Shown here in pieces: positions 20,826-54,100 of a DNA stretch of 64,000 nt. The notes under the pieces were generated by a model that had not been told where the DNA came from, searched no databases, and was given only the letters and a program-made list of their open reading frames with translations. The DNA lies in NCBI GenBank assembly GCA_002506755.1, contig DAYD01000008.1, forward strand, positions 2,151 through 66,150. Direction: 5' to 3'. This DNA is from Euryarchaeota archaeon UBA462. GTDB lineage: Archaea > Thermoplasmatota > Poseidoniia > Poseidoniales > Thalassarchaeaceae. The position numbers and the translations under genes are program-made. Position 1 is the first letter of the stretch. Every line of letters begins with the position of its first letter.

Positions 20826-22937
20826 TCAGAAGTCTCCTAATGTTGGTTGCCTATCGGGCGGAATTTCTTCCAGTATGGCCCCTCCCAGTATCTCATCAAG
20901 GTCAGACTCCGAGATTATCCTCACACCTAGGCGCCTTGCCTTCTCCAACTTAGAGCCGGCGGAATCACCTGCTACTAGAAAGTCTAGATTTCCTGAGACT
21001 GATGAGACCACTTTGCCTCCTTCTGATTTTATAGAGAGTGAGATTTCTTTTCTTGGCCTGCTTAGAGTCCCAGTTATGCAAAAGCTCGATCCTGAGAGTT
21101 TTCCTTCCTGGACCTTCGGGTCCTCATGGATAATGTCGACCTTTTGGTAAAGATCCAAAATAGACTCCTTCCTTTCAGAGATTCCATCGAGTAAAAGTCT
21201 AGCAACTGTTTCCCCAATTCTGTCTATTGATACTAGCCTATCAATAGATGTCCCTGTGTCCTCGGTCATGGCTAGTATTTCCTCGAGAGTCCTTACTTCC
21301 GAACAAACTAGAGTAGCTATCTCGGGACCTATCCGTGGGAGCCCTAAAGCGGAGATGAAAGTACTGAGAGTCATCGAACGGGTAGACCTAAGCTCCTCTA
21401 GGATATTACTTGCAGACTTCTCGGCCATTCTATCCAGCGAGATTAGCTCATCTCGCCTGTTTTCAAGTCTATATAGGTCTCCAAGGCTCCTTACGAGTCC
21501 GGATGAGCAAAGCTGCTCGGCCAATTTTTCTCCTATTCCGTCCATCCCTAGATTCCTGCACCAATACAGAATTGACCTTTCTAGTCTCGACGGGCAATCT
21601 AAATTCGTGCATCTGATGAATGCACCATCTTCTATTAGATGATTTGAGCATCTTGGGCAATGCTCTGGTGCCGATATTGTAGATCTATTAGGGAGATGTT
21701 CTGAGAATGGGGTTCCATCTGCATGGGTTCTCCCCTCCAAATCAGATTCTTTTGCTGGCCCTAAAACCTCTGTGATCTTGGGGATGACATCCCCCCTCCT
21801 GACTATCCTGACTTTATCTCCAATCCTGATTCCTAATCTTTCGACCTCCCCTCTATTGTGGAGAGTGGTGTTCTCCACAGTTACTCCTGAAACTACGACT
21901 GGGGCTACCCTAGATACTGGGGTGACGTTTCCCGTTCTGCCGGTCTGCCAATGTACTTCCATCAGAACACTTACTGCCTCTTCTGGAGGGAACTTCCAAG
22001 CCAATGCCCATCTGGGGTGGTGGGCGGTCTCACCAAGAAGATCCCGTTTGTCTAGACGATCAAGCTTTATCACGACTCCATCAAGCTCCCAATCTGCTGA
22101 GTCTCTGGATTGGAACCAACTTCTGGTTGTGCGCAGTATTGATTCCGTAACTGATTCGTCGTCCTGTCCAGATACAACTGTATCTCCCGCCACCTCTATT
22201 CCCATCTCGGAGATCCAGCTTATAATCTCAGAATCTAGTTTGAAATCGGGGGGTTTTGGACTATCTGGGTGGCGATCCCGGCCTGTTGGGAATTCTACCC
22301 CATATGCTAGGAACACTAGGTCCTCCGGGCTCCCCTTCCCTACGTCTAGGTATTTCTGACGCAGGGCTCCGGCAGCGAGATTCCTTGGGTTAGGGGCTAC
22401 GTCTGAGTACTTCTTGTCAAATATTTCGAGGGGCATAACTACCTCTCCCCTTACATGACAGTCTCCCTCCCAAGGAATCCTATTAGGGACATTGATCATT
22501 CTACGTGCGTTGGAAGTCACATCCTCGCCCCTTCTACCATTCCCTCTTGTTGCTGCTGTAACCAAGCGTCCTCTACGATATTCGAGGGAGAGGGCGGACC
22601 CATCCAACTTAGGTTGACATACAAATCTCCGGCCATTGGCAGTGGTCTGGGAGACAAAGTGGGCTACTTCTTGTTCGGTTGTAGCCTTGTCAAGGCTCAT
22701 CATCCTGAACAAGTGGTCTACTTTTTTTGACCCAGGAGGGGGGTCGGAACCCACAATACTTAGCTGGGGGTGGTTGGGCGAGAGTTGTTTGAGCTCATCT
22801 CTTATTGAGTCGAATTCGGAGTCAGAGATGATTGGTTTGGCTTGATTGTAATATAGCTCTGAGTGCCTCTCCAACTCCTTCGCGAGCCACTGTATTCTCC
22901 GGGAGGAGCCGGGCACCGACGGAGCATCCTGAGCCAT
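20826..22937 (-). CDS. ligA: NAD+-dependent DNA ligase (bacterial type)
   Basis: Adenylation motif CQPKLDGSA; C4 zinc finger CPRCSNHLIEDGAFIRCTNLDCP; HhH region; C-terminal BRCT (FCITGTLSRPRKEI...FLVAGDSAGSKLEKARRLGV). The start is moved to MAQDAPSVPG (ATG at 22937) because the longer track ORF runs through tRNA-Pro. Confidence 0.9.
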   Translation of the reverse strand: MAQDAPSVPGSSRRIQWLAKELERHSELYYNQAKPIISDSEFDSIRDELKQLSPNHPQLSIVGSDPPPGSKKVDHLFRMMSLDKATTEQEVAHFVSQTTANGRRFVCQPKLDGSALSLEYRRGRLVTAATRGNGRRGEDVTSNARRMINVPNRIPWEGDCHVRGEVVMPLEIFDKKYSDVAPNPRNLAAGALRQKYLDVGKGSPEDLVFLAYGVEFPTGRDRHPDSPKPPDFKLDSEIISWISEMGIEVAGDTVVSGQDDESVTESILRTTRSWFQSRDSADWELDGVVIKLDRLDKRDLLGETAHHPRWALAWKFPPEEAVSVLMEVHWQTGRTGNVTPVSRVAPVVVSGVTVENTTLHNRGEVERLGIRIGDKVRIVRRGDVIPKITEVLGPAKESDLEGRTHADGTPFSEHLPNRSTISAPEHCPRCSNHLIEDGAFIRCTNLDCPSRLERSILYWCRNLGMDGIGEKLAEQLCSSGLVRSLGDLYRLENRRDELISLDRMAEKSASNILEELRSTRSMTLSTFISALGLPRIGPEIATLVCSEVRTLEEILAMTEDTGTSIDRLVSIDRIGETVARLLLDGISERKESILDLYQKVDIIHEDPKVQEGKLSGSSFCITGTLSRPRKEISLSIKSEGGKVVSSVSGNLDFLVAGDSAGSKLEKARRLGVRIISESDLDEILGGAILEEIPPDRQPTLGDF

Positions 22938-22974
22938 GTCAGTCCAAAGGGGCCGATGTCCTTGAAACTGCCCG

Positions 22975-23052
22975 TGGTGGGCCTGCCAGGATTTGAACCT
23001 GGGTCGCGCGACCCCCAGCCGCGAAGTATAGGCCAAACTAACCTACAGGCCC
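22975..23052 (-). tRNA. tRNA-Pro (anticodon GGG), CCA encoded
   Basis: Reverse complement: GGGCCTG TA GGTT AGTTTGGCCTA TACT T CGCGG CTGGGGG TCGCG CGAC CCAGG TTCAAAT CCTGG CAGGCCC A CCA. The acceptor and T arms pair perfectly; the D stem has one mismatch and one G-U pair. Confidence 0.8.
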
Positions 23053-24648: not shown

Positions 24649-24667
24649 CCTGCGGGCGCCCCGCAGG
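24649..24667 (-). terminator. GC-rich hairpin between the 2640-aa gene stop and the ribosomal-protein cluster (candidate terminator/processing signal)
   Basis: CCTGCGGG cgc CCCGCAGG: an 8-bp perfect inverted repeat, flanked by T runs (TTTT on the plus strand at 24672-24675; GGTTT on the reverse strand). Confidence 0.3.
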
Positions 24668-24694: not shown

Positions 24695-27600
24695 CTAAAT
24701 CTTGAATCCGTCGTTGTCTACTGAGTCGTCGACCCCAGCAAACCTGACCTGGCCCTCCGCATCAACAAACTGTCCTGCTTTGACCGATGGCCCATAGAGG
24801 GAGGATTCTGTTGAGGATGTTCTGGATAGCATACTCTCTCCCAGAGCCCTGTTCATTCTCCCAATCATAGATTGGAAAATCTGTATGGCCCTATCTCTCT
24901 CCTCGGAGCCGATGTCATGGTCTGAATATCTAGCCTCTTCAAAGATCGTGAAGAAGCCATCGATCTCCTCGGGAGGAACAATTCCTCCAAGCATCTTGTT
25001 GATAACATCCTCAAACTCTCTGGTTGTCTCAAAGACCTTTTTCATAGCCCCCCTCATTCTAAAGTACTTTATGAGGTCCTTATAGCACGAGAAAATAGCC
25101 TCGATGTAATTATTTGAGGCCTTTAGTGACATTAGAGCGTCTGTTAGAATTCCTCTCAGGACCTCCACCTTCCTTCGTTCTCGATAGTTGTTGTACATGA
25201 TTGTCCCCACCAAGACCATGGCCGAGAGTGCGATTCCTGAAATTACCATAACTTGTGTGGTTAGGAAACTTGCTTTGGCATCAACTTCGGGATTTCCTTG
25301 AGATATCGAAGGCGTACTGTTAAGCCATTGTTCCACGAAATAGGGCTGATTCTCATCAGCAGACTCGAAGTGGACTAGGACCCTCCACCTCCCATCAGGC
25401 GCGCTCCACTCTGGATGTCCGGGTATTTCTTCTCCTGTGTATTGGAAAGAGAAGTTTGCCGAGCCTCTCTCATTTGTAATCAGGATCTCGACTCTTTCCG
25501 TCTGCCACCCTGAACCGTTCCAGAACTGTCTATGGAACTCCACTCTCTGACCCTCCACTGTAAGGTCTAGCCTGTCCCTTAGAATAGCAACCTCCCCCTC
25601 GATGATTTCTCCTTCAAGATATCCCGTTGGGCTCGCCCAGTGCTCTTTCAGTAAGATGTCGACTTTACTTCTTACCAGAACTTCAACATCCATGAAAGAG
25701 CTATTCAATACTGGATTGGGCTCTAGTGCCTCATAGTCGCATCCTCCAGGTATGTACTTCTCCGGTTCGTATGCTACCCTTACTGTTCTAAAGCCCTCTA
25801 GTTTGTTTCCGCTAGGTTCGACACCACGTCTGCTAGGGTTGTCATCGGGATCGGCTGAGTACCAAATGAATTGTCCTGTTCCGTCTGCTGTAAATGCCGT
25901 AGCGATAGGTCGAGTGTTCACATCTGGGTCTAGATATATGTTGACGCACTTCCCCCCCACCGGCTTACCATTGGACTGGGAGAGCTTGGCATTGATGTGG
26001 AAGGCCTCCTTGAGATAGAGGACCTGAAAGTCTGAACCATTAGGGAAAGTGTACGTTAGGTAGTCAGATCTGAATGGGCCGACCTCTGATACCTCTAGGG
26101 TTGAGTTAGAAAAGACAGGGAAGAACATTACTTGTGTCTTATTCTTATATCTGTACCTGTCATTGTTGAGAGTGTCCCAAGCATTGTATTCAACATTGAC
26201 CTTGGCAGTTCCAGCGTCTACACCCGAAATGGGGCAGTTTATTTCGAATAGTCCGTTTTCATCTGTTGCCCCGGGGATGCATGCTCCAATACCATCGTCT
26301 CCTGCCCGGAACTTCATTCTGTTTTCTATCGGATCAAAAATCATCGATCCCATCTCATAGGTAACCCGGATTTGTCTACTGGAAAGGTTTCCACCAAGTT
26401 CGTCTGTGAGTTGACCGGTGACAATCATCGGCTTCTCGAGGATAAGTCCAGTATCAGGGTCAATCTCAGATGTGTAGACTATCTGCTGATCGACATCCAG
26501 TTTGGTGTTGCCGATGAGGCTGAACCCATCCACTTGGAATTGCAGGACCTTCCTAAAGTGGTCGCTGTTCAGTATTGTGACACATGGGTCCCACGCGCCG
26601 GATGTAGTAAGCATCTCTGAAGTAACTGGCCCGCATCCTTCGTGGGGGAGGTTTTCCTCGAATCTAATGATGACATTGACCGGGCCAAATCCGTCGGGCA
26701 AGTATGAGAAGGGGTCGTCTTTCAGGAGCTGGGGATCTAGGGTAGTTTTGAAGTCAATCTTCCCATCCTTTGGGCATGTCCTGTTCACTATCTGCCTGTG
26801 AGTCCTATCCTCGAAATCTACACCCTCGAAGATTATTGTCACGTTTCCTCCTAGGTCATATCCATCTTGGTTCTGGATTGGAGCACAACCCATGTTTTCG
26901 CCCAAAGTAGTGAGTACGGCGCCCCCAACATCTTTCTCAAATGGAGTCTTGTTGTCATCCAGAACAACCGCAGATAGTCGCCAATCATCCCCATTATAGG
27001 CAACGTTGGGCCCAGCACTACTTAGGCTGATATATGTCCTTGATACAACCCATAGACTGACTTCGGCCGAGTTCCCTTGTCTAAGGCTGTCTCCCATGTA
27101 GGTAAATCCTAGTGAGAAGTTTCCGAGTGTGTCTATGTCGGTCAGATTGACCTTGAAAACACCATTGTTGTCAGTTATTGCCACTCCGCTAGTCAGATCC
27201 CCGGACCATGTCCAGTTTACGGGGACTTCGCGCACAGGTTGGAATGCATTGTCGATCAGACGGGCTTCAACGGTAGTGTTCTGGCCCCTGTAAAGGCGTG
27301 GAAGGGAGTTCAATTGGAAGTCAGTGGTCCCAATGACGGTAACGTTTCCATATGCTCCTGTGGCAGCGAGTACCTGTTCTTGCTCTCCTGTGAAGTAGTA
27401 GTCTGACAAGGTGAAGTCGGCCTTTACTCCAAATGTTCCTGCTGGGTACTGGGAGAACCATGTCCAGTTGTAGTCGAATGTTGCTAGTCCCTCGACCATG
27501 TTTGGTCTTCTGGAGTATGCCGTCTCGAGGCTGCCAGAAAAGACACCATTGTTATCGATATCCATTTGGAGGGCGATTGCGTCCTGGGTCCAAGGTACGA

Positions 27601-30600
27601 AGGTTCGATTCCACACGTTTCCGACTACTCTTATGGTCTCTCCAGTGAACATCTCTGGGACTATTTCACACCTTACCTCACTGTTCGGAACTAACGGATC
27701 GACGGGACCACATGGAGGCGAGTCGAAGTCAGCACCATTCTGCATGGTGATTGTCCAATGTGTACCGTTAGAGGAAAGGAATCCAGTAAGAGCGCCGCCC
27801 GCTATACCGTTCAACCCTGAGGGAGTCCCATCCCATAGGATCGGATACGACTTGCCTAGGCTTGCATCTGAGAAAGTTGTTCCTGCATTTGCCAGAGAAG
27901 GTGCATGGAACAGTGCCCTCCATGCTCCGAAGGAAGAGCCGGTGAACTGTGTAGCATCCCAGAAGTAGACGGGTCTGAAGGATGAAACGTACATTTCCGC
28001 TTCTACGTACATCCTATGCATTGCTCTGATGTAGAATGTGTCAGTCTTAGAGCCCTCTAGATGGGCCCATGGCCATTCATATTCGTCGTCTAAGCATCCA
28101 CCTAGATCAGGTCTGGAGAATCCGATGAAGCTGTAATCACCAACTGGTAGTGTTGTATTTCTGTATTCATAAGTGCCGAGGACAGAATGTGATCCAGTTG
28201 GATTATTCGTAGAGCAAGGGTTCCAGTTTATTTCCTCATACCCCCCGGTTGGAATTCCCTCACCGTTGTTTAGTAGTGAGTTCCACTGAACTTGCTCCCA
28301 CCGATCCAATGATTGGTTATAGGCCAATGAAACCCAACCGCCAGAGTCAGCTCTGTAACCGTTTCCATAACCGTCGTAAACAGTAGGGTGGGTGATGTTT
28401 CCAAATTGGGTTCCAGAATCGCTAATTGTGAAAGAAACTGGCGCAAAGGGTATCCTGTTGTCGAATATTCCTCTGTTATAATCGGCTGTGTAGTGTACCT
28501 TGAAGTCGAGCTTCAAGGGTTGTTCGTCAGCTCTGAATCTTTGACCTGAAACGAATCCTATTGTTGTGTTGGCCCTTACTTCAACCGGAAAGCCGGTGTC
28601 ACCCAGGCCATCCCCATCCGTGTCTTCAAGAGTAGAGCTGTAGTCGTGTACAAACATCTCAGTGACCTCAGAGTAAACCTCGTAAGTTGTATTGGGCCCA
28701 ACCTGGATATCCTCCGGGAATAGGAATTGACCGACGACGTAATCCCCATTGGAATCAGTTAGTACGTCTATCGTCTCAATGACTGAGGTGCCATTTTCAA
28801 TGTAGCGAATGTGTACCTGGACTGGAATGTCGGGAGCGGGGACGAAGCCCGTATCATCTAACCAGAAAACAGTTCCATTAAAAATTGAAGGTCTGTTTTC
28901 GTCCAGCCATAATATTGGTTGGGTGGATAGTGTAATCCTAGTCGGAATTTTGTCATCGTCGTCTAGCACTCCGTTATTATCAGAGTCCCAATCAGAACTA
29001 GAACCGGAAGATTCCTCGGTCTTGTTAGAAGGAATTGCCCAGCTTCCCACTGATGGATTGTTCCAGTCGAGATCCTCCCTACCATCATTATCATCGTCGA
29101 CGTCGAAGTAGTCTGGTCCAGTCGAGTTGTTTGTTGGATTTGCTATACCGACCCCTCCTCCAAAGTCGTCGTGATCCCATGGATTGGTCGATTCCATTCC
29201 AAACCTCGAAGGCCAAAGCATCACCTCGTCCTCATCCTTCATGCCATCGTAATCGTCGTCTTCATCTATGTCGTCTCTGATTCCATCATTGTCATGATCC
29301 CATGGAGCTATGGGGAAGTTGAGGCAACACACATCGTCGAATGCGTCAGCAGTTCCCTGGTGATCGATCAGGTTCTGAAGCTCGAGAGAGTTGGGTATTC
29401 CGTCTCCATCCCAATCATCGTCCGCCCAGTTCACTATCCCGTCATTGTCGTGGTCCCAAGTGCTCTGTTCCTCACCTGTGAAGCATCCAGGGAAAAGTTC
29501 CTGGGCTGCATCCGAGACTCCGTTGTTGTCATCGTCTGGATCTTCCCCATCCGGGACCCCGTCATTGTCATTGTCGACATCGTAATACTCCGGGAAAAGA
29601 AGGGCCTGCCCCAAGACTCCTTTGTCCCATACCGATTGATAAATTCCGTCTCCATCAGGATCCGTGTCCAGACCATCATCATCTGCATCCTCGCAATTGT
29701 CGCCTACAAAGTAGAAAGGCTCGTTTACTGGAGGATTAAAGGAATCAGGGTCATCATCGTCTAAGTCACTATTAGAGTCCACTTCAAGGAAGTCCCAGAC
29801 CCCATTATTGTTGTCGTCGACATCGAAGTGATCGTACACAATATCCCAATCATCATCCAAGTCATTGGTATTGTTGAACATGCAGTTGGGAGTCCATGAG
29901 AAATCGGGAATGGGTTGTCCGCAGTCAATATCTGGATCCACATCATCATTTAGCAGGTCGCCAATTTCGTCTGGGAAGAAGTTGTTGTTTACATCTGAGG
30001 TCCACTGGAAAAGGTTTCCACCATTCTGTCCGATCCCAATGTAAGTTATCCAGAGATCTCTGTTGTTCCTCATTTCTTGATAGCTGACTGCCGATGACGG
30101 GGTTGGATTGCTAGTTGGATCGAAAGTAAACCAGTAGCAGTTAGATATGCAGCTAAATTCGCCATTTGGATGGTTGGATCCGTCATATGCGCCATCATCC
30201 CATTCTGGATCAGGACGAGTGCTATAGGGGACCGAAAATACGTTACCTCCCGTCTGAGTGGGCGTTAGGAGTGGTACTTTGAATAGGAATGCATACTGTA
30301 ATCCACACCACCTCTCTTGAATAGGACTGAAGATTATTGTTCCACAAGAGTTTCGGTCTAGAGACCCGCCCATCTTTACATCATCTACATCTAGGATACC
30401 GTCGTTGCCCTCGTCTTGGTCCCACCAGTCTGGAAGGCCATCCCCATCCTGATCTATGTCGATTCCGTTTACTAGTGAGTCTCCATCTGTGTCGATATCG
30501 AAGAAGTTGTCTCCGTTGTATGGGCTCCACTTCATCATTAGGAACCAGTACATCTCTGGTATGGTTCCCTCTATTGGTGGAAATGAGCTGTCATCGTACC

Positions 30601-32617
30601 CATTGTAGTCTAGCATGAAGCTATTATCAAAGTTGAATGGATTGAAACCCCATGTTATATTCCAGTAATAGTTGTCAACAGCCGCATAAGCCGCACTATC
30701 CTCGGAGCCGTCTATAGCATCGCCGTCTGATTGTGGCCAGCTATTTCCAAAGAAATTGTCAGTATTGTCAGAATCCACAATTCCGCAGTTACCATCATCT
30801 GGATCGAAGAAGTCGTTTATTCCGTCGTTGTCGTCGTCCCAGTCTTCATCGTTCTGGAGCCCGTCTCCATCCACGTCCGTGTCGATATCGTTAGGCCCAT
30901 CATCCCTGAACATAGAACCATTAAGTTCGTGAAGATAAGCATCGTTATCCAAATCGCAGTCAGGATCGATATCCAACCAGTCGAGAATGCCATCGTTATC
31001 ATCATCCACGTCGACCCAATTGTTCACCCCGTCGCCATCCCAGTCGTTGAAACCAGTGTAGGAAGTTCTCCAGAGAATGCAATTATCGCTTGGGTTCTGC
31101 GGGTTTGGGTTCTCCAATGTGGCACAGTCCCAGGAGGCTACCTCAGCCGAGTCATTGAGCGGGTATGGGTCGTCCTCATTCTTCAGGCCATCATTATCTA
31201 GGTCCCACGGGGTAGCTTCCCAGACTGGATTGTCCGGCCTCTCGGTTCCACCCATATCAGTATCTAGCCAATCCCAGACCATATCGTAGTCAGCATCGAT
31301 GGCTCTGAAACGATCATCGTCCAGGTCCCCGTCGTAGTCTATCTCACAATCTTCTCCCGGAGTCTCTATAGCCACTGAAAACCCATTAAATGCTTCGAGG
31401 GGATAGTCCCCCTGACCATCAGAATTAGTATCCAGCTGTCGGCATTCGTCAGGAATTCCGTCATTGTCATCATCCACATCATACATGTCTGCTAGGCCAT
31501 CATTATCGTCATCAGTATCCGAAGAGTCTGGTGATCCGTCGTTGTCATTGTCCGGATCAAGGAAATTTGGTATTCCATCACCGTCAAGGTCCCCATCGAA
31601 AATTTCAGTGAAGCTCTGCTCTCTTGGGTGCTCAAGAGCATGGAGCTCAACGTAATCAAGTCCATCGACATATTGCGAATAGTTAGTGGCATTCCACCTT
31701 ACGGCAGTATCCCATAGTATGCCTTGTGCCGTTGAAATCTGTGATGTCTGAGTGGAGTCCCAAGGATGGATGTCATTGATATCGAGTACTCCGTCACCAT
31801 CATCGTCGTCGTCGAAATAGTCCTGTATACCATCTGAATCGAAGTCACATGGCCATATGAATTGGTCAATTCTTCCGTCATTATCATCGTCCTCGTCATA
31901 TGATCCCCTCCCTGAACCGTCTATGTCCTCATCGGTTATTCCATCGTTATCGTGATCCATTGGATTTTGGTCCACTAGATAGCCAAAACCTACCGGTCCT
32001 CCGGTCCATGGATGGACCGCATTTGGATCGACATGCCTGTCAGATGTGACGTTCCATGGATCGTTTCCCTGATCATAGTCTATTGGTCCCTCTAGGATTC
32101 CGTCGTTGTCATCGTCCCAGTCGAATTCATCCTGAATGCCGTCGTTGTCGTGATCATATGGGTCAGTCCCATAGCATCCATCAAACCTTTCGATTAGGTC
32201 GTTTATACCGTCGTTGTCATCGTCTAGGTCGTCAAGGTCGTTTATACCGTCGTTGTCGTGATCATCGGTGTTTGTCTCCTCTAGAAAGAAGCCGTAGCTA
32301 GGGTCTAAACCCAGGGCAGAAAGGTCCGAGACCTTTCCATAAACGGAAGCTGCATCATTGTAAAACGGGCTGAATGCCGGGTTCTGAAATGGGTTTGTAG
32401 TAGCCGGTTGATACTGCCCGTCTCCTTGGACAGGTGCGGAGACCTGCCCCATTTGAGGGTATGCAGTTCTCTTAGAAGGCTCAATGCTTTCCTCTTCTTC
32501 GACAGGATCGCTGGTCTTTTCGAAAATCATGAGTTGTGTGCTCAATATCATCAAAGTGACTAATGTGATCGCCGGTAAAACCCCCTTAGTTTCCTTTCTC
32601 CCTTCATTTTCACTCAT
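24695..32617 (-). CDS. Giant (2640 aa) membrane-anchored surface protein: >=30 thrombospondin-type-3-like Ca-binding repeats, several beta-sandwich modules, C-terminal TM helix and a cytosolic DUF4129-like domain
   Basis: N-terminal hydrophobic segment LPAITLVTLMILSTQLMIF. D-x-D-x-D-G-x-x-D-x-x-D repeats (DHDNDGINDLDD, DDDNDGILDWLD, WDHDNDGIRDDID ...). Later modules carry T(D/N)xxGxF (TDSNGDYVV, TDNNGVFKV, TDENGLFEI, ADGTGQFIW). TM helix VISGIALSAMVLVGTIMY. The tail contains FTIFEEARYSDHDIGSEERD. Confidence 0.9.
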   Translation of the reverse strand: MSENEGRKETKGVLPAITLVTLMILSTQLMIFEKTSDPVEEEESIEPSKRTAYPQMGQVSAPVQGDGQYQPATTNPFQNPAFSPFYNDAASVYGKVSDLSALGLDPSYGFFLEETNTDDHDNDGINDLDDLDDDNDGINDLIERFDGCYGTDPYDHDNDGIQDEFDWDDDNDGILEGPIDYDQGNDPWNVTSDRHVDPNAVHPWTGGPVGFGYLVDQNPMDHDNDGITDEDIDGSGRGSYDEDDDNDGRIDQFIWPCDFDSDGIQDYFDDDDDGDGVLDINDIHPWDSTQTSQISTAQGILWDTAVRWNATNYSQYVDGLDYVELHALEHPREQSFTEIFDGDLDGDGIPNFLDPDNDNDGSPDSSDTDDDNDGLADMYDVDDDNDGIPDECRQLDTNSDGQGDYPLEAFNGFSVAIETPGEDCEIDYDGDLDDDRFRAIDADYDMVWDWLDTDMGGTERPDNPVWEATPWDLDNDGLKNEDDPYPLNDSAEVASWDCATLENPNPQNPSDNCILWRTSYTGFNDWDGDGVNNWVDVDDDNDGILDWLDIDPDCDLDNDAYLHELNGSMFRDDGPNDIDTDVDGDGLQNDEDWDDDNDGINDFFDPDDGNCGIVDSDNTDNFFGNSWPQSDGDAIDGSEDSAAYAAVDNYYWNITWGFNPFNFDNSFMLDYNGYDDSSFPPIEGTIPEMYWFLMMKWSPYNGDNFFDIDTDGDSLVNGIDIDQDGDGLPDWWDQDEGNDGILDVDDVKMGGSLDRNSCGTIIFSPIQERWCGLQYAFLFKVPLLTPTQTGGNVFSVPYSTRPDPEWDDGAYDGSNHPNGEFSCISNCYWFTFDPTSNPTPSSAVSYQEMRNNRDLWITYIGIGQNGGNLFQWTSDVNNNFFPDEIGDLLNDDVDPDIDCGQPIPDFSWTPNCMFNNTNDLDDDWDIVYDHFDVDDNNNGVWDFLEVDSNSDLDDDDPDSFNPPVNEPFYFVGDNCEDADDDGLDTDPDGDGIYQSVWDKGVLGQALLFPEYYDVDNDNDGVPDGEDPDDDNNGVSDAAQELFPGCFTGEEQSTWDHDNDGIVNWADDDWDGDGIPNSLELQNLIDHQGTADAFDDVCCLNFPIAPWDHDNDGIRDDIDEDDDYDGMKDEDEVMLWPSRFGMESTNPWDHDDFGGGVGIANPTNNSTGPDYFDVDDDNDGREDLDWNNPSVGSWAIPSNKTEESSGSSSDWDSDNNGVLDDDDKIPTRITLSTQPILWLDENRPSIFNGTVFWLDDTGFVPAPDIPVQVHIRYIENGTSVIETIDVLTDSNGDYVVGQFLFPEDIQVGPNTTYEVYSEVTEMFVHDYSSTLEDTDGDGLGDTGFPVEVRANTTIGFVSGQRFRADEQPLKLDFKVHYTADYNRGIFDNRIPFAPVSFTISDSGTQFGNITHPTVYDGYGNGYRADSGGWVSLAYNQSLDRWEQVQWNSLLNNGEGIPTGGYEEINWNPCSTNNPTGSHSVLGTYEYRNTTLPVGDYSFIGFSRPDLGGCLDDEYEWPWAHLEGSKTDTFYIRAMHRMYVEAEMYVSSFRPVYFWDATQFTGSSFGAWRALFHAPSLANAGTTFSDASLGKSYPILWDGTPSGLNGIAGGALTGFLSSNGTHWTITMQNGADFDSPPCGPVDPLVPNSEVRCEIVPEMFTGETIRVVGNVWNRTFVPWTQDAIALQMDIDNNGVFSGSLETAYSRRPNMVEGLATFDYNWTWFSQYPAGTFGVKADFTLSDYYFTGEQEQVLAATGAYGNVTVIGTTDFQLNSLPRLYRGQNTTVEARLIDNAFQPVREVPVNWTWSGDLTSGVAITDNNGVFKVNLTDIDTLGNFSLGFTYMGDSLRQGNSAEVSLWVVSRTYISLSSAGPNVAYNGDDWRLSAVVLDDNKTPFEKDVGGAVLTTLGENMGCAPIQNQDGYDLGGNVTIIFEGVDFEDRTHRQIVNRTCPKDGKIDFKTTLDPQLLKDDPFSYLPDGFGPVNVIIRFEENLPHEGCGPVTSEMLTTSGAWDPCVTILNSDHFRKVLQFQVDGFSLIGNTKLDVDQQIVYTSEIDPDTGLILEKPMIVTGQLTDELGGNLSSRQIRVTYEMGSMIFDPIENRMKFRAGDDGIGACIPGATDENGLFEINCPISGVDAGTAKVNVEYNAWDTLNNDRYRYKNKTQVMFFPVFSNSTLEVSEVGPFRSDYLTYTFPNGSDFQVLYLKEAFHINAKLSQSNGKPVGGKCVNIYLDPDVNTRPIATAFTADGTGQFIWYSADPDDNPSRRGVEPSGNKLEGFRTVRVAYEPEKYIPGGCDYEALEPNPVLNSSFMDVEVLVRSKVDILLKEHWASPTGYLEGEIIEGEVAILRDRLDLTVEGQRVEFHRQFWNGSGWQTERVEILITNERGSANFSFQYTGEEIPGHPEWSAPDGRWRVLVHFESADENQPYFVEQWLNSTPSISQGNPEVDAKASFLTTQVMVISGIALSAMVLVGTIMYNNYRERRKVEVLRGILTDALMSLKASNNYIEAIFSCYKDLIKYFRMRGAMKKVFETTREFEDVINKMLGGIVPPEEIDGFFTIFEEARYSDHDIGSEERDRAIQIFQSMIGRMNRALGESMLSRTSSTESSLYGPSVKAGQFVDAEGQVRFAGVDDSVDNDGFKI
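28950..32270 (-). repeat. Thrombospondin-type-3-like acidic repeat region (coding repeat; approximate bounds)
   Basis: I counted about 30-33 DxDxDGxxD units by eye between residues ~117 and ~1220 of the 2640-aa protein. The DNA shows recurring gtcgttgtcatcgtc-type strings. Confidence 0.8.
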
Positions 32618-32732
32618 GGAATCCTCATCCCAGCACTGGCTAGGGTTGTTGGCATGTTCAAATACTTATGAATCGATTCCTAACAAAATCATGATTCGTA
32701 TCACAGAGCGACTCTAGTATCATACCAGATCC

Positions 32733-51164: not shown

Positions 51165-54100
51165 TCAGAATACCATGTCATCGTCGTCTGATCCAGGAAG
51201 CAGGCTGCTAAGCTCAGAAAATCTAGCTATAGCTTCAATCCTCCTTCCCCATATCACATAGCCTGCCACTCCAATTAAAGAAAAAGTCGCACCCATGATA
51301 ATCACGGGAACTGAATACTTGACGACGACTTCCCTGCCCACATCCAGAGCCCCTAGTGGAGAGCTCATCGTGCCAGCGCTCTCTATGTTGTTGTTCTCAT
51401 TAGTCTCAACAATGTTATTATCTGGATCTACAACTACTACAATTTCATGATTCCCAGCTTGCACCATATACAACAAGGTGATTGGATCTTGTTGTTCTGT
51501 CTCACTTTGACCAATTGGCATAATAGCTGCAACAATCTGCCTGTAAACGATGTTGTTCTCCTTGCATCCGTTCCTCTTGATGTCTGATTCAGACTGGTCT
51601 TTGCAGAGGATAATATTCACATCAGACGCATGAGCATTTCCTCTGTTAGTCACCTCGACAATTACTGAAATCATCTCCCCTATCGATGCTTCTCGCTGAT
51701 TAACGGTTACCTTCTCCAGAACTAGGTCCGGTGCCCTGAGCCGCATTTCCAAAACCTGCTCGTTTGTATCGCAATCAGGGGGGAGATTGTCGGGAATACC
51801 GTCGGAGTTGTCGTCGAGGGTGCAAGAGTCTGTCCAAATCTTAGTCTCATCATGATCACCCCCCTCTTCCGAGGACCCATGCATGGATAGGACCTTTATT
51901 CCGATATTTCTATCTGTCAGCGAAGCATCGGGTGCCACTGTGACAATCACTACTAGCTGAAGCGTTGTATAAGGTTCCATCAAAGGAAGAGTGACTGTGT
52001 TCCCTGCGGTTAAGAAGCAATAGTCTGGTTCATTACCCTGAGCTTGTTGCTGAGTAATCTGCACCTCTTCCTCGACAGTCAATTCAACACAAGGATTCTC
52101 AATCGGGAATTCTGTTCTGAACCCCTCAAGAAGGGCATAATCTACTTCCCAAGTGCTTAGAGCGCCCATTCCAGGACTAGCGAGCCAAACCTCGTTTACA
52201 TCATCATAAGTATGGTTGTGAATTGTAGGTTGGTCCGCAACGTTTCCGTAATTTGTGACATTTAGTGTGTATCTTACAATCCTACTCGGTGCTGTGGTTT
52301 TTATCTTGCTTTCAACTGATGGATCCAAGGATATTCTCATGTCATGAAATTCAATGATAGTAGCACGCAGTACAATCTGATCTTGAAGCCGAGTGTCTTC
52401 GAAAGGCTCCTCACTTAGTACATTGAATGTGATAGTGTATTCCCCAGCTAAGGTTTTCTCGGGAACGTTGACGTAGATCGGAACGACCTGGGATTCGTCT
52501 CTATCTAATTCCTCAAATAAGATTCTGGGGATGTTCATATCCCAGACGTGGAAACCCCCTGCATCGTCAACAATGGAAGCGATTGTTATGTCGAATCTAT
52601 CCGGACCGTTTCCTTTGTTTGAGATCATGGTATCCATTTGATAGGATTGTCCCGGATATAATTCCAATATGGTCTCTGGAACTTCGGATTCCAATTCATA
52701 CCTCTGAACCACATTTGTCAAAATGAGTACTGAGTCACGTACCTTTGGAGCACCATCTAAGTGCGCCCTTACAGTCATCGATTCTCCAATTCCTGCAGTC
52801 GCGTTGAAAGGCGCACACATCTCTGCCGTGACTGTGTAACTGTTTTCTATTTGGGCCCAATAAATGTCCTGATCTGCTGATGAAGATCCACCAGGCCATT
52901 CAGAGAAATCCAGGTCAACTGTCCAATGATCAAATCTCCATGAATTAATGTCCGCACCTGATGGTCTCTCCTCGGGGGCCCCAGGGGTCGAGAAAACTAG
53001 ATATCCGGGAGTAAAATATTTGTCCACTTGGATAGGGAATCTGGCACACTCACCTGGCAAAACGTAGAGCTTTGTATCACCTACTCCAAAGACAATGTTC
53101 CCAGTTGTCCTGATAGACACATTGATCCATAACTCAAGAACATCAAATGTTCCTCTATCTATCGAAAGAACGGGTTCTCCTGTCGACCAACCCTTCAGGT
53201 AAATAGCGAAAGTTCCGGGATCTTGAGATTCTGGAACGCTTACCTTTAGATTCCGCGTCACCGATTGTCCGGGATCCAAAGATATCGAAAATGGGAACTC
53301 TACCCCCCAACCAAAGGGAAGTGCCCACTCATTCTGGCCCTCCAAGGTAGTGGGATCGTAGAATGCGAATGTGTCGTAGACGTTGCCTGTGTTCTTTATC
53401 GAAATTGAGAAGACTGCAGATTTCCCCTGCTCTACGTCGACTTGGAAATGACTAGTGTCTAATTCGATCCCATGGACTACATCCATCAAAGTCAGAAGGG
53501 TAAGCTTACTCCTGATAGCCGGATCCTTAGATGAGGTTGCGATAATGCTGATTTGGGCTAGTTCGTCTTGTTTAGCTTGATAGATGGTTGGAGCTCTCAC
53601 CCTAAGGTATAGTGGATCTATGCTACCCCCCTCTAAGAATATCTTGGTGGAGTCGAAGATTGGAGTATTGTTGGTCATGTAGAATAGTGTAGCTGTCCAG
53701 TTGTTTGGAACTCCCTCCATTGTGACAGTAAATGTGTCCTTCACTAGTTCGGCTGGACCGGGAGTTGGGTTCGCAATTGAGATGTTGAAAGTAGTAAGCT
53801 CTCCTGGTTGAATAGTATGGTAGAAGGTTTCAGCTTCTGCAGGACATTCGTAAGGATACCCTTCAATATTGGTATTAGCGCTTATTTTGTTGTCACACGC
53901 CAAGGAAAGATCTACCAGACCAGTAAGAACGTGGACATAACAGAGAGTCCATTTGCTTGCGCTGGGGGAATCCGGATCACATCGCTTGTCTGACCAAGCC
54001 AAATGGGCTCCACTACCAAGATCATTCGCAAAGGCCGGAGGCATTCCCCTATCTAGGTTGAAATCCGGGTATAGATGCTCCCCATCAGCGGTATTGCATT

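What the first reader, a model, noticed from the sequence alone, without database searches (positions are those of the whole stretch)
24695..32617. 2640-aa protein with at least 30 thrombospondin-type-3-like calcium-binding repeats
Residues ~117-1220 are an almost continuous run of D-x-D-x-D-G-x-x-D-x-x-D units ([37 protein letters not shown] and so on). I counted about 30-33 by eye. This is the Ca2+-binding repeat type known from thrombospondin/COMP and from bacterial adhesins. Several beta-sandwich modules with T(D/N)xxGxF motifs follow, then a single TM helix. Such a long polyanionic Ca2+-binding array on an archaeal cell surface suggests Ca-dependent adhesion or matrix binding.
Basis: partly seen in the sequence, partly recalled or inferred. 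Interest (0 to 1): 0.6.

Follow-up and report, generated by a model that had tools for sequence, protein, structure and literature searches.

The report
Conserved giant calcium-repeat archaeal surface protein
This 8-kb gene encodes a real 2,640-residue membrane-anchored surface protein, found in single copy in almost every Marine Group II (Poseidoniales) archaeon, with an acidic head of about 28 calcium-loop motifs on a long stalk; its function is untested and it looks more like a fixed envelope part than a variable adhesin.

Summary
ORF 24695-32617 (-) is intact and encodes 2,640 aa. It has 28 strict DxDxDGxxD-type motifs in residues 117-1225, against 1.2 expected from composition. It also has a single C-terminal TM helix.

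- The repeats are thrombospondin-type-3-like. A profile of the protein's own 30-aa double unit finds bacterial OmpA TSP3 repeats, BamM, COMP and thrombospondin-2 as the best PDB matches.
- No Pfam TSP3 model reaches threshold. The units form a cysteine-free, 13-residue-period subtype.
- The rest of the ectodomain is a chain of about 10 macroglobulin/Ig-like beta-sandwiches (AF2 pLDDT 80). The cytoplasmic tail is a DUF4129 domain.

The gene is an order-wide core gene. It is present in 145 of 151 Poseidoniales genomes and 22 of 22 genera. It is single-copy, 2,560-2,800 aa long, always directly upstream of L18e-L13-S9, under purifying selection, and absent outside the order.

It is related to DUF4129-tailed giants that sit in MoxR-DUF58-DUF4350 operons in the sister lineage.

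Published transcript data for an orthologue, mis-annotated "plastocyanin", show moderate expression. That argues against a main S-layer role.

Best reading: a constitutive, Ca2+-stiffened envelope strut or binding platform coupled to the cytoplasm. This is a new variant of a known kind. Function is untested.

The parts
24695..32617 (-). Complete gene, 2,640 codons plus TAG stop
   Evidence: No indels in 4 independent metagenome runs. Orthologues are open at 2,560-2,800 aa.
32622..32626 (-). GAGGA Shine-Dalgarno-like element 5 nt upstream of the ATG
   Evidence: Read directly from the sequence. Function is inferred.
32522..32584 (-). N-terminal hydrophobic segment (residues 12-32), preceded by K/R: a signal peptide or N-terminal anchor
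   Evidence: Kyte-Doolittle window >1.6. The LMxxSTQ core is conserved. Cleavage was not tested.
28943..32269 (-). Acidic calcium-loop head (residues 117-1225). It holds 28 DxDxDGxxD-type motifs, many as 13-residue-spaced pairs, and has net charge -276.
   Evidence: 21 of 28 motifs are kept in >=90% of 30 orthologues. The PDB profile search hits TSP3 proteins. AF2 is uninformative here, pLDDT 35.
29903..30376 (-). Non-repeat insert with four invariant cysteines (residues 748-905: C758, C771, C823, C827), of unknown fold
   Evidence: Invariant columns. No Pfam family. Not related to the paralogue's transglutaminase core (hhalign probability 0.1%).
25343..28942 (-). Stalk (residues 1226-2425): about 10-11 all-beta sandwich domains, macroglobulin/Ig-like. 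It has 26 N-x-S/T sequons against 10.6 expected.
   Evidence: AF2 mean pLDDT 80.4, all strands. Foldseek top hits are A2ML1, ECAM, alpha2-macroglobulin, CD109, C3 and C5, E 1e-19 to 1e-14. Sequon count.
27134..27280 (-). Big_1-like Ig domain (residues 1780-1828), the only stalk domain seen by Pfam
   Evidence: PF02369, 28.9 bits, below the 34.9-bit cut-off. Precomputed PF02369 on many orthologues. It is the only part that matches outside the order.
25190..25270 (-). Single transmembrane helix (residues 2450-2476), followed by YRERRK (positive-inside)
24698..25189 (-). Cytoplasmic tail (residues 2477-2640), helical, with mean column identity 64% across the order
   Evidence: Homologous to the tails of the paralogue (E=6e-20) and of the sister-lineage MoxR-cassette giant (E=9e-13).
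24878..25048 (-). DUF4129 (PF13559) match, residues 2524-2580
   Evidence: 21.8-24.3 bits, just under the 24.8-bit cut-off for this copy. 30 of 30 orthologue tails match, best E=2.4e-10.
24649..24667 (-). Perfect 8-bp GC-rich hairpin (CCTGCGGG..CCCGCAGG) followed by TTT, in the 62-bp spacer before the L18e gene. A possible terminator or insulator.
   Evidence: Read from the sequence. Function is inferred.

Best explanation
Shown by analysis:
- The gene encodes a type-I membrane glycoprotein that is a constitutive part of the Poseidoniales cell envelope.
- From outside to inside it has four parts: a roughly 1,100-residue polyanionic head built from about 28 DxDxDG calcium loops of a thrombospondin-type-3-like, cysteine-poor subtype; a stalk of about 10 macroglobulin/Ig-like beta-sandwiches; one TM helix; and a conserved cytoplasmic DUF4129 domain.
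- It is a derived member of the DUF4129-tailed giant surface proteins. In the sister lineage these are encoded in MoxR-DUF58-DUF4350 operons.

Inferred:
- In seawater (about 10 mM Ca2+, from general knowledge) the loops should be permanently loaded. Ca2+ would then act as a structural cofactor that stiffens the head.
- The stalk would hold the head an estimated 35-45 nm from the membrane.
- In Poseidoniales the giant has become unlinked from the MoxR-DUF58-DUF4350 genes, which are still present in matching number elsewhere in the genome.
- It most likely works as a fixed-length strut or binding platform of the surface coat. Its Ca2+-bridged acidic head would contact the cell's own glycans or external polyanions.
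- Its tail would dock the MoxR/DUF58/DUF4350 module in the cytoplasm.
For: Architecture.

TSP3-like units: one search gives OmpA TSP3 5wtl (E=6e-5), BamM 9n2d (0.0028), COMP (0.0065) and TSP-2 (0.0077) as the best of 177,635 PDB sequences.

Core-gene status:
- 145 of 151 genomes, 56 of 58 high-quality genomes and 22 of 22 genera carry it.
- Single copy in its own genome.
- Outside the order only weak Ig-domain matches are found.
- Conserved position directly upstream of L18e-L13-S9 in both families.

Constraint:
- 21 of 28 motifs are kept in >=90% of orthologues, and the head is the best-conserved part at 0.74-0.78.
- Its identity to MGIIa orthologues (about 47-50%) is similar to LigA at 53-57%.
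- 36 of the 40 best-supported population variants are synonymous.

Extracellular glycoprotein: sequons are enriched 2.5-fold in the stalk.

Transcription: fragments 100% identical to the gene occur in 4 metatranscriptome runs.

Family link:
- The paralogue P0122 has TSP3_bac + Transglut_core + beta-sandwich chain + TM + DUF4129, and its tail matches at E=6e-20.
- The sister-lineage operon runs TSP3 protein, DUF4129 giant, DUF4350, MoxR, DUF58, and the giant's stalk and tail are homologous at E=9e-13.
- The window's own genome has 2 MoxR, 2 DUF58, 2 DUF4350 and 2 DUF4129 giants.
Against: - No Ca2+-binding, localisation or interaction data exist.
- The AF2 model of the head is unusable, pLDDT 35.
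- Pfam TSP3 models do not reach threshold.
- The link to MoxR/DUF58/DUF4350 rests on homology to cassette genes in another lineage and on matching gene counts. It does not rest on linkage here.
- Published coverage for the probable MGIIb-O1 orthologue is only moderate: 0.18-0.34 CPM, against 1.3-2.1 for L18e and 13-74 for proteorhodopsin (Damashek 2021, PMC9723583 suppl. 4). It is therefore not an abundant coat protein.
- A strongly conserved adhesin for a conserved ligand would give the same conservation pattern.
Confidence: 0.45

Rival explanations
1. Dedicated Ca2+-dependent adhesin. The acidic TSP3-like head binds particles, algal polysaccharides or other cells, and attachment is the protein's main role.
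For: TSP3-like motif arrays occur in bacterial surface giants. Rinke et al. 2019 (PMC6461757) list 'thrombospondin genes' as an adhesion trait of Poseidoniales. The long stalk and the distal head fit a reach-out adhesin.
Against: - It is single-copy and length-conserved, with motif-by-motif invariance across two families.
- Population variants are mostly synonymous.
- It has a conserved cytoplasmic domain.
- It is present in nearly all genera searched; no free-living versus particle-associated split was tested.
- The Rinke assignment is annotation-level only.
Confidence: 0.25
2. Main S-layer or coat protein of Poseidoniales. It would form a Ca2+-dependent lattice that covers the cell.
For: Signal segment, C-terminal TM anchor, acidity, sequon enrichment and Ig-like domains are all typical of archaeal S-layer glycoproteins. 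It is a core gene next to a ribosomal-protein cluster.
Against: - Transcript coverage of the probable orthologue is about 10-fold below the adjacent L18e and 70-200-fold below proteorhodopsin.
- RNA contig depth here is similar to neighbouring genes, not exceptional.
- A 160-residue conserved cytoplasmic domain is unusual for S-layer proteins.
Confidence: 0.1
3. Polyanionic cation reservoir or sieve. The -276-charge head would concentrate or buffer divalent cations at the cell surface rather than bind ligands.
For: Extreme charge density and conserved Asp positions.
Against: The ordered DxDxDG spacing, with conserved Gly and aromatic residues, points to discrete structural sites and not to a diffuse polyelectrolyte. 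No transporter is linked to the gene. Seawater is not Ca/Mg-limited (general knowledge).
Confidence: 0.07
4. Alpha2-macroglobulin-like protease trap, suggested by the Foldseek hits.
For: Top structural matches are A2ML1, ECAM, A2M, CD109, C3 and C5. There is a weak MG4 Pfam hit.
Against: TM-scores are about 0.1, which reflects a shared chain of MG-type sandwiches only. There is no helical thioester domain in the model and no CxEQ motif.
Confidence: 0.02

Closest known systems
DUF4129-tailed giant surface proteins of Thermoplasmatota. These include the TgpA-like paralogue in the same genome (P0122, 3,019 aa) and the giants in MoxR-DUF58-DUF4350 operons of the sister lineage (L070, 1,849 aa). 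The bacterial reference is TgpA (PA2873) of Pseudomonas aeruginosa (from my own knowledge).
   Same: They share the beta-sandwich stalk, single TM helix and cytoplasmic DUF4129 module. This is shown by sequence: E=6e-20 and E=9e-13. A calcium-loop region precedes the stalk in P0122 (PF18884).
   Different: There is no transglutaminase core. The head is far larger and of a different repeat subtype. The gene is not next to MoxR, DUF58 or DUF4350 but upstream of a ribosomal-protein cluster.
Thrombospondin type-3 repeats: thrombospondin-1/-2 and COMP (PDB 1ux6, 1yo8, 3fby), and bacterial TSP3 repeats in OmpA-family proteins (5wtl) and BamM (9n2d)
   Same: It shares the DxDxDGxxDxxD consensus, back-to-back units with a 13-residue period, and an almost complete lack of predicted secondary structure. 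In the solved proteins these motifs wrap Ca2+ ions (my knowledge of those structures).
   Different: There are no inter-motif disulfides: 18 Cys in 1,109 residues. No Pfam PF02412 or PF18884 hit reaches threshold. There is no C-terminal lectin-like domain and no OmpA or Bam context. The array is 2-3 times longer than in thrombospondins.
Alpha2-macroglobulin/complement/TEP family (A2ML1 7q1y, E. coli ECAM 5a42)
   Same: It has a long series of MG-type beta-sandwich domains.
   Different: There is no thioester domain, CxEQ motif or bait region. This is fold-level resemblance only.
'Thrombospondin genes' reported as widespread in Ca. Poseidoniales (Rinke et al. 2019, PMC6461757), and the 'plastocyanin (petE)' gene 515 of SIMO Bin 19-2 (Damashek et al. 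2021, PMC9723583)
   Same: These probably include this gene family. Gene 515 is 7,924 nt, lies next to L18e and has a Big_1 hit. That matches the synteny and the cupredoxin-bearing O-clade orthologues.
   Different: Those papers give annotation labels only. Neither describes the architecture, the core-gene status or the DUF4129/MoxR kinship. The 'plastocyanin' label reflects a roughly 100-aa cupredoxin insert that is absent from the copy in this window.

Membership tests
Thrombospondin type-3 repeat (Pfam PF02412 TSP_3 / PF18884 TSP3_bac) | Tandem DxDxDGxxDxxD calcium-loop motifs with regular short spacing | tested here: met
   28 motifs against 1.2 expected. Ten pairs are spaced exactly 13 residues apart.
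Thrombospondin type-3 repeat (Pfam PF02412 TSP_3 / PF18884 TSP3_bac) | Match to the curated Pfam models at or above the gathering score (25 bits) | tested here: not met
   PF02412 gives no hit. PF18884 gives 8.5 bits, E=2.4. The protein was scanned whole and in 10 pieces. The models are also weak on D-rich bacterial giants, but strong on the DTDGDGMPDGWE type (116.7 bits).
Thrombospondin type-3 repeat (Pfam PF02412 TSP_3 / PF18884 TSP3_bac) | Sequence-profile similarity to solved TSP3-repeat structures | tested here: met
   A profile of 11 of the protein's own double units gives 5wtl at 6e-5, 9n2d at 0.0028, 3fby at 0.0065, 1yo8/2rhp at 0.0077 and 1ux6 at 0.28.
Thrombospondin type-3 repeat (Pfam PF02412 TSP_3 / PF18884 TSP3_bac) | Disulfide-forming cysteines in or between repeats, as in metazoan TSP/COMP and OmpA 5wtl | tested here: not met
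   Most units contain no Cys. There are 18 Cys in residues 117-1225, and about 14 of them are conserved, mostly outside the motifs.
Thrombospondin type-3 repeat (Pfam PF02412 TSP_3 / PF18884 TSP3_bac) | Ca2+ binding and a Ca-wrapped, secondary-structure-poor fold | tested here: inconclusive
   The AF2 model has pLDDT 35 and almost no regular structure. This is compatible but not informative. Binding cannot be tested with these tools.
DUF4129 (PF13559) / TgpA-like membrane proteins | DUF4129 HMM match at the C-terminus | tested here: met
   This copy scores 21.8-24.3 bits against a 24.8-bit cut-off, so it is borderline. 30 of 30 orthologue tails match, best E=2.4e-10.
DUF4129 (PF13559) / TgpA-like membrane proteins | Domain placed in the cytoplasm directly after a TM helix | tested here: met
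   TM helix at 2450-2476, followed by YRERRK.
DUF4129 (PF13559) / TgpA-like membrane proteins | Transglutaminase core (PF01841) with a Cys-His-Asp triad | tested here: not met
   No PF01841 hit. The four-Cys insert is unrelated to the paralogue's core and has no invariant His.
DUF4129 (PF13559) / TgpA-like membrane proteins | Gene neighbourhood with MoxR and DUF58 (and DUF4350) | tested here: not met
   The neighbours are RlmH and L18e-L13-S9. The MoxR, DUF58 and DUF4350 genes lie on another contig. Linkage is present in the sister lineage.
Alpha2-macroglobulin / thioester-containing proteins | Chain of MG domains | tested here: met
   Foldseek E=1e-19 to A2ML1, ECAM and A2M.
Alpha2-macroglobulin / thioester-containing proteins | Helical thioester domain with a CxEQ motif | tested here: not met
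   The model is all-beta. There is no C.EQ anywhere in the protein.
Archaeal S-layer glycoprotein | Secreted, C-terminally anchored, acidic, with many N-glycosylation sequons | tested here: met
Archaeal S-layer glycoprotein | Very high expression or abundance, and lattice formation | tested here: inconclusive
   Published coverage of the probable orthologue is moderate, and RNA contig depth is unexceptional. Both argue against. Lattice formation cannot be tested here.

The most novel reading that the evidence does not exclude
This protein and its transglutaminase-like paralogue are the two outward arms of a dispersed MoxR-DUF58-DUF4350 envelope machine. In this reading the AAA+ ATPase acts through the cytoplasmic DUF4129 tails. 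It would assemble, tension or switch the Ca2+-loaded heads, giving an integrin-like inside-out control of the surface of the ocean's most abundant planktonic archaea.
Probability: 0.12. Interest if true: 0.8.

Novelty: new variant of a known kind. Interest (0 to 1): 0.45.

Why it matters
Poseidoniales are among the most abundant archaea in surface oceans and have never been cultured, so their cell envelope is unknown. This gene is one of the largest in a genome of roughly 1.3-2 Mb, taking about 0.5% of it. It is nearly universal and restricted to the order, so it is a strong candidate for a defining envelope structure and a useful lineage marker.

It also corrects the literature. An orthologue counted as a 'plastocyanin' redox gene in a transcriptome study is most likely this surface protein carrying a small cupredoxin insert.

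Its kinship with MoxR-DUF58-DUF4350 cassette giants gives a concrete, testable handle on a widespread but uncharacterised archaeal gene module.

Tried and rejected
1. Pfam and NCBIfam on the whole protein and on 10 pieces. This gave no TSP3 hit at threshold, only sub-threshold Big_1 and DUF4129.
2. A profile of the whole head against PDB. The only weak hit was BamM. Thrombospondin was not found, probably because of composition-bias correction. The short double-unit profile worked.
3. AF2 of residues 90-1240 with 30 orthologues. pLDDT was 35, so the model was unusable and was not sent to Foldseek.
4. A cryptic transglutaminase in the four-Cys insert (residues 748-905). This was rejected. hhalign probability against the paralogue's core is 0.1%, there is no Pfam family and no invariant His.
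5. Alpha2-macroglobulin membership. This was rejected because there is no thioester domain or motif.
6. Recent tandem duplication. This was rejected because there is no DNA-level repeat array.
7. Head derived from the separate TSP3 protein of the sister-lineage operon. This is not supported: BLASTP gives only E=0.03, a motif-level match.
8. The DUF4129 tail against PDB. No relative has a solved structure.
9. Literature searches for DUF4129 in archaea, an MGII S-layer or MGII metaproteome data. Nothing relevant was found.
Full report
**1. Observation**

The minus-strand ORF 24695..32617 is the longest complete frame in this part of the window. It translates without stops to 2,640 aa (P0001). 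A GAGGA element sits 5 nt before the ATG.

There are 35 DxDxDG matches, some overlapping. There are 29 non-overlapping [DN]x[DN]x[DN]Gxx[DNE] matches, 28 of them in residues 117-1225. Shuffling that region while keeping its composition (22-29% Asp) gives 1.24 +/- 1.11 motifs, with a maximum of 7 in 2,000 shuffles. The array therefore owes much more to order than to composition.

Ten adjacent pairs are exactly 13 residues apart. The array is not continuous. Non-repeat stretches lie at about 285-340, 400-470, 610-705 and 745-930.

Only two hydrophobic segments exist, residues 12-32 and 2450-2476. The second is followed by YRERRK, so the last 164 residues are cytoplasmic. There is no DNA-level tandem repeat.

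**2. Is the gene real and intact?**

Contigs from four metagenome runs of four different studies cover the gene with substitutions only and no indels. Of the 40 best-supported variants, 35 fall on third codon positions. 36 are synonymous and the other four are conservative. Pieces 100% identical to the gene occur in at least four metatranscriptome runs, and about 20 RNA runs hold some of its sampled 31-letter words. RNA contig depth is similar to neighbouring genes such as the class II RNR.

**3. Distribution**

A search with the C-terminal 1,400 residues found more than 190 full-length relatives of 2,437-2,714 aa. Identity ranged from 46 to 89%. The named ones come from Ca. Thalassarchaeaceae, Ca. 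Poseidoniaceae and Poseidoniales MAGs. In species-representative genomes, full-length matches occur only in Poseidoniales contigs, plus a few evidently mis-binned ones. Bacteria match only the D-rich region, at 27-36% identity.

With a stalk profile (A3), the results were:
- 145 of 151 Poseidoniales genomes have the gene.
- 56 of 58 high-quality genomes have it.
- 22 of 22 genera have it.
- Open frames are 2,560-2,800 aa with no internal stops.
- Extra 'matches' in a genome are contig-end fragments.

The gene is single-copy in the window's own genome, a 1.25-Mb MAG that is 76% complete. The other genomes sampled across the phylum, including the sister lineage in the same class, give only weak hits to one Ig-like domain.

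In every locus with flanks, the gene lies directly upstream of L18e-L13-S9 on the same strand, in both families. In MGIIb, RlmH lies upstream.

**4. Conservation**

In 17- and 30-sequence alignments, nearly every Asp and Gly of the motifs is column-invariant. 21 of 28 motifs are kept in >=90% of orthologues. The first 200 residues of the head are the most conserved part of the protein, at 0.74-0.78 identity to the query. Overall divergence from MGIIa is about 47-50% identity. That is like LigA at 53-57% and only a little below L18e and L13 at 57-60%. This is the pattern of a constrained structural gene, not of a diversifying adhesin.

**5. What the parts are**

*Head.* Pfam gives no TSP_3 hit, and TSP3_bac scores only E=2.4, for the whole protein or in pieces. 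A profile of the whole head finds no thrombospondin in PDB.

A profile built from 11 of the protein's own 30-residue double units (A4) behaves differently. Among all 177,635 PDB sequences its best matches are:
- an OmpA-family protein with TSP3 repeats (5wtl, E=6e-5)
- BamM (9n2d, 0.0028)
- COMP (3fby, 0.0065)
- thrombospondin-2 (1yo8/2rhp, 0.0077)
- thrombospondin-1 (1ux6, 0.28)

Generic DxDxDG sites follow. The alignments pair DxDxDGxxDxxDxDDDxDG with COMP's [22 protein letters not shown] and [22 protein letters not shown].

Pfam is a poor judge here. Bacterial giants with 29-71 such motifs also stay below threshold. PF18884 scores 116.7 bits on a DTDGDGMPDGWE-type protein. I conclude that the repeats are TSP3-like calcium loops of a distinct subtype. 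The subtype is cysteine-poor, has a 13-residue period, and is captured by neither Pfam model.

AF2 on the head failed, with pLDDT 35. A 158-residue insert with four invariant cysteines (residues 748-905) has no detectable relatives and is not a hidden transglutaminase.

*Stalk.* AF2 of residues 1226-2425 with 30 orthologues gives pLDDT 80.4 and an all-beta chain of about 10-11 sandwiches. Foldseek's best matches are A2ML1, E. coli ECAM, alpha2-macroglobulin, CD109, C3 and C5, with E from 1e-19 to 1e-14 but TM-scores near 0.1. This reflects a shared series of MG-type domains. There is no helical thioester domain and no CxEQ motif. Sequons are 2.5-fold enriched, 26 against 10.6 expected.

*Tail.* DUF4129 is borderline in this copy at 21.8-24.3 bits, against a cut-off of 24.8. 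It is found in 30 of 30 orthologue tails, best E=2.4e-10. No relative has a solved structure.

**6. Family context**

The same genome holds a second DUF4129 giant on another contig (P0122, 3,019 aa). Its parts are TSP3_bac repeats (25.4 bits), a transglutaminase core (PF01841, E=8e-12), a CarboxypepD_reg/Big_1 chain, a TM helix and DUF4129. Its last sandwich, TM helix and tail align to P0001 at E=6e-20.

The genome also holds the following genes, all unlinked to either giant:
- DUF4350-MoxR-DUF58 as one operon
- a second DUF4350-DUF58 pair
- a second MoxR elsewhere

That makes two of each component.

In a genome of the sister lineage (same class), one strand carries these genes in order:
- a 976-aa TSP3_bac protein
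- a 1,849-aa beta-sandwich + DUF4129 giant
- DUF4350
- MoxR
- DUF58

The stalk and tail of that giant are homologous to P0001, at E=9e-13 and 2e-10. The separate TSP3 protein shows only motif-level similarity to our head, so a simple gene fusion is not shown.

Earlier notes from this scan describe the same family and its paralogue in other MGII genomes, with similar conclusions. I reproduced the main points independently.

**7. Literature**

Rinke et al. 2019 report 'widespread thrombospondin genes' in Poseidoniales as an adhesion trait, at annotation level only.

In Damashek et al. 2021, gene 515 of MAG SIMO Bin 19-2 (MGIIb-O1) has these properties:
- It is 7,924 nt long.
- It lies next to the L18e gene.
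- It carries a Big_1 hit.
- Prokka labels it 'Plastocyanin petE'.

The main text counts it among 'two copper-containing redox proteins' enriched when O1 is active. Size, synteny and the cupredoxin-bearing O-clade orthologues (PF00127/PF13473, 'plastocyanin' at JGI) make it almost certainly the orthologue of this gene. I did not compare the sequences.

Its coverage is 0.18-0.34 CPM in the two best samples. That is typical to upper-middle for that MAG, about 10-fold below L18e and 70-200-fold below proteorhodopsin. This argues against a major S-layer role.

**8. Mechanism**

Shown:
- Topology, module order, TSP3-like motif array, MG/Ig-like stalk and DUF4129 tail.
- Core-gene status, purifying selection and homology to MoxR-cassette giants.

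Inferred:
- Ca2+ saturation in seawater stiffens the head.
- The stalk projects the head tens of nanometres from the membrane.
- The tail docks cytoplasmic partners of the MoxR/DUF58/DUF4350 module.
- The head makes Ca2+-bridged contacts with the cell's own coat or with external polyanions.

I rate this envelope strut or platform reading at 0.45. The rivals are a dedicated adhesin at 0.25, the main S-layer at 0.10, a cation reservoir at 0.07 and an alpha2-macroglobulin-like trap at 0.02.

**9. Verdict**

The protein is built from known module types in an arrangement that is a new variant of the DUF4129-tailed giant surface proteins. The family has been noted before only through annotation labels. 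It is interesting as a lineage-defining envelope gene of a very abundant uncultured archaeal order, but its function remains untested.

Noticed in passing
G000 contig C5, locus L066:4135-13194 (+): A second DUF4129-tailed giant in the same genome (P0122, 3,019 aa). It has TSP3_bac repeats, a transglutaminase core, a CarboxypepD_reg/Big_1 chain, a TM helix and DUF4129. A 983-aa Ig-like partner gene overlaps its start.
   Followed up: partly
G000 contig C18: L067:2167-7137, L069:1644-5760, L068:3860-4873: Two dispersed sets of DUF4350, MoxR and DUF58. One is an operon (DUF4350-MoxR-DUF58-310 aa). In the other, MoxR lies about 33 kb away, next to aIF2 and a ParA-like ATPase. The counts match the two DUF4129 giants.
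   Followed up: partly
L070:3115-16192 (-), sister lineage in the same class; the same gene order is seen in L071: A complete operon: a 976-aa TSP3_bac protein, a 1,849-aa DUF4129 giant, DUF4350, MoxR, DUF58 and a 281-aa unknown. This is probably the ancestral linked form of the module.
   Followed up: partly
Orthologues P0024, P0025, P0031, P0033, P0035 (about residue 300 of the alignment): MGIIb O-clade orthologues carry a roughly 100-aa cupredoxin insert between calcium-loop blocks. In P0031 and P0025 it has apparent type-1 copper ligands (H...C-x2-H-x2-M); in P0037 they are lost. The copy in this window has no insert. The insert explains the 'plastocyanin' annotations, including gene 515 in Damashek et al. 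2021.
   Followed up: partly
Orthologues P0101 and P0120 (MGIIa), inserted near residue 400 of P0001: Some Poseidoniaceae orthologues carry a different Gly/Thr-rich insert of about 70-100 aa (…GTGLTVDIVA…GYGY…). Its fold is unknown.
   Followed up: no
window 24649-24667: A perfect 8-bp GC hairpin followed by TTT lies between the giant gene's stop and the L18e gene. It may be a terminator that insulates the ribosomal-protein cluster.
   Followed up: no
window 51165-56417 (-): A 1,750-aa ORF with an N-terminal signal-like segment, a VWA-type MIDAS-like motif (DTSGSM), one DDNSDGIPD calcium loop, a C-terminal TM helix and an acidic tail. It is another large surface protein.
   Followed up: no
Genomes G015, G090, G118, G119: A few fairly complete Poseidoniales genomes (G015 is 96% complete) show only weak Ig-domain matches. 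They may truly lack the gene, or it may have fallen in an assembly gap.
   Followed up: no
window 20826-23036 (-): A bacterial-type NAD+-dependent DNA ligase (LigA) lies downstream of the ribosomal cluster and tRNA-Pro. It is syntenic across Poseidoniales.
   Followed up: no
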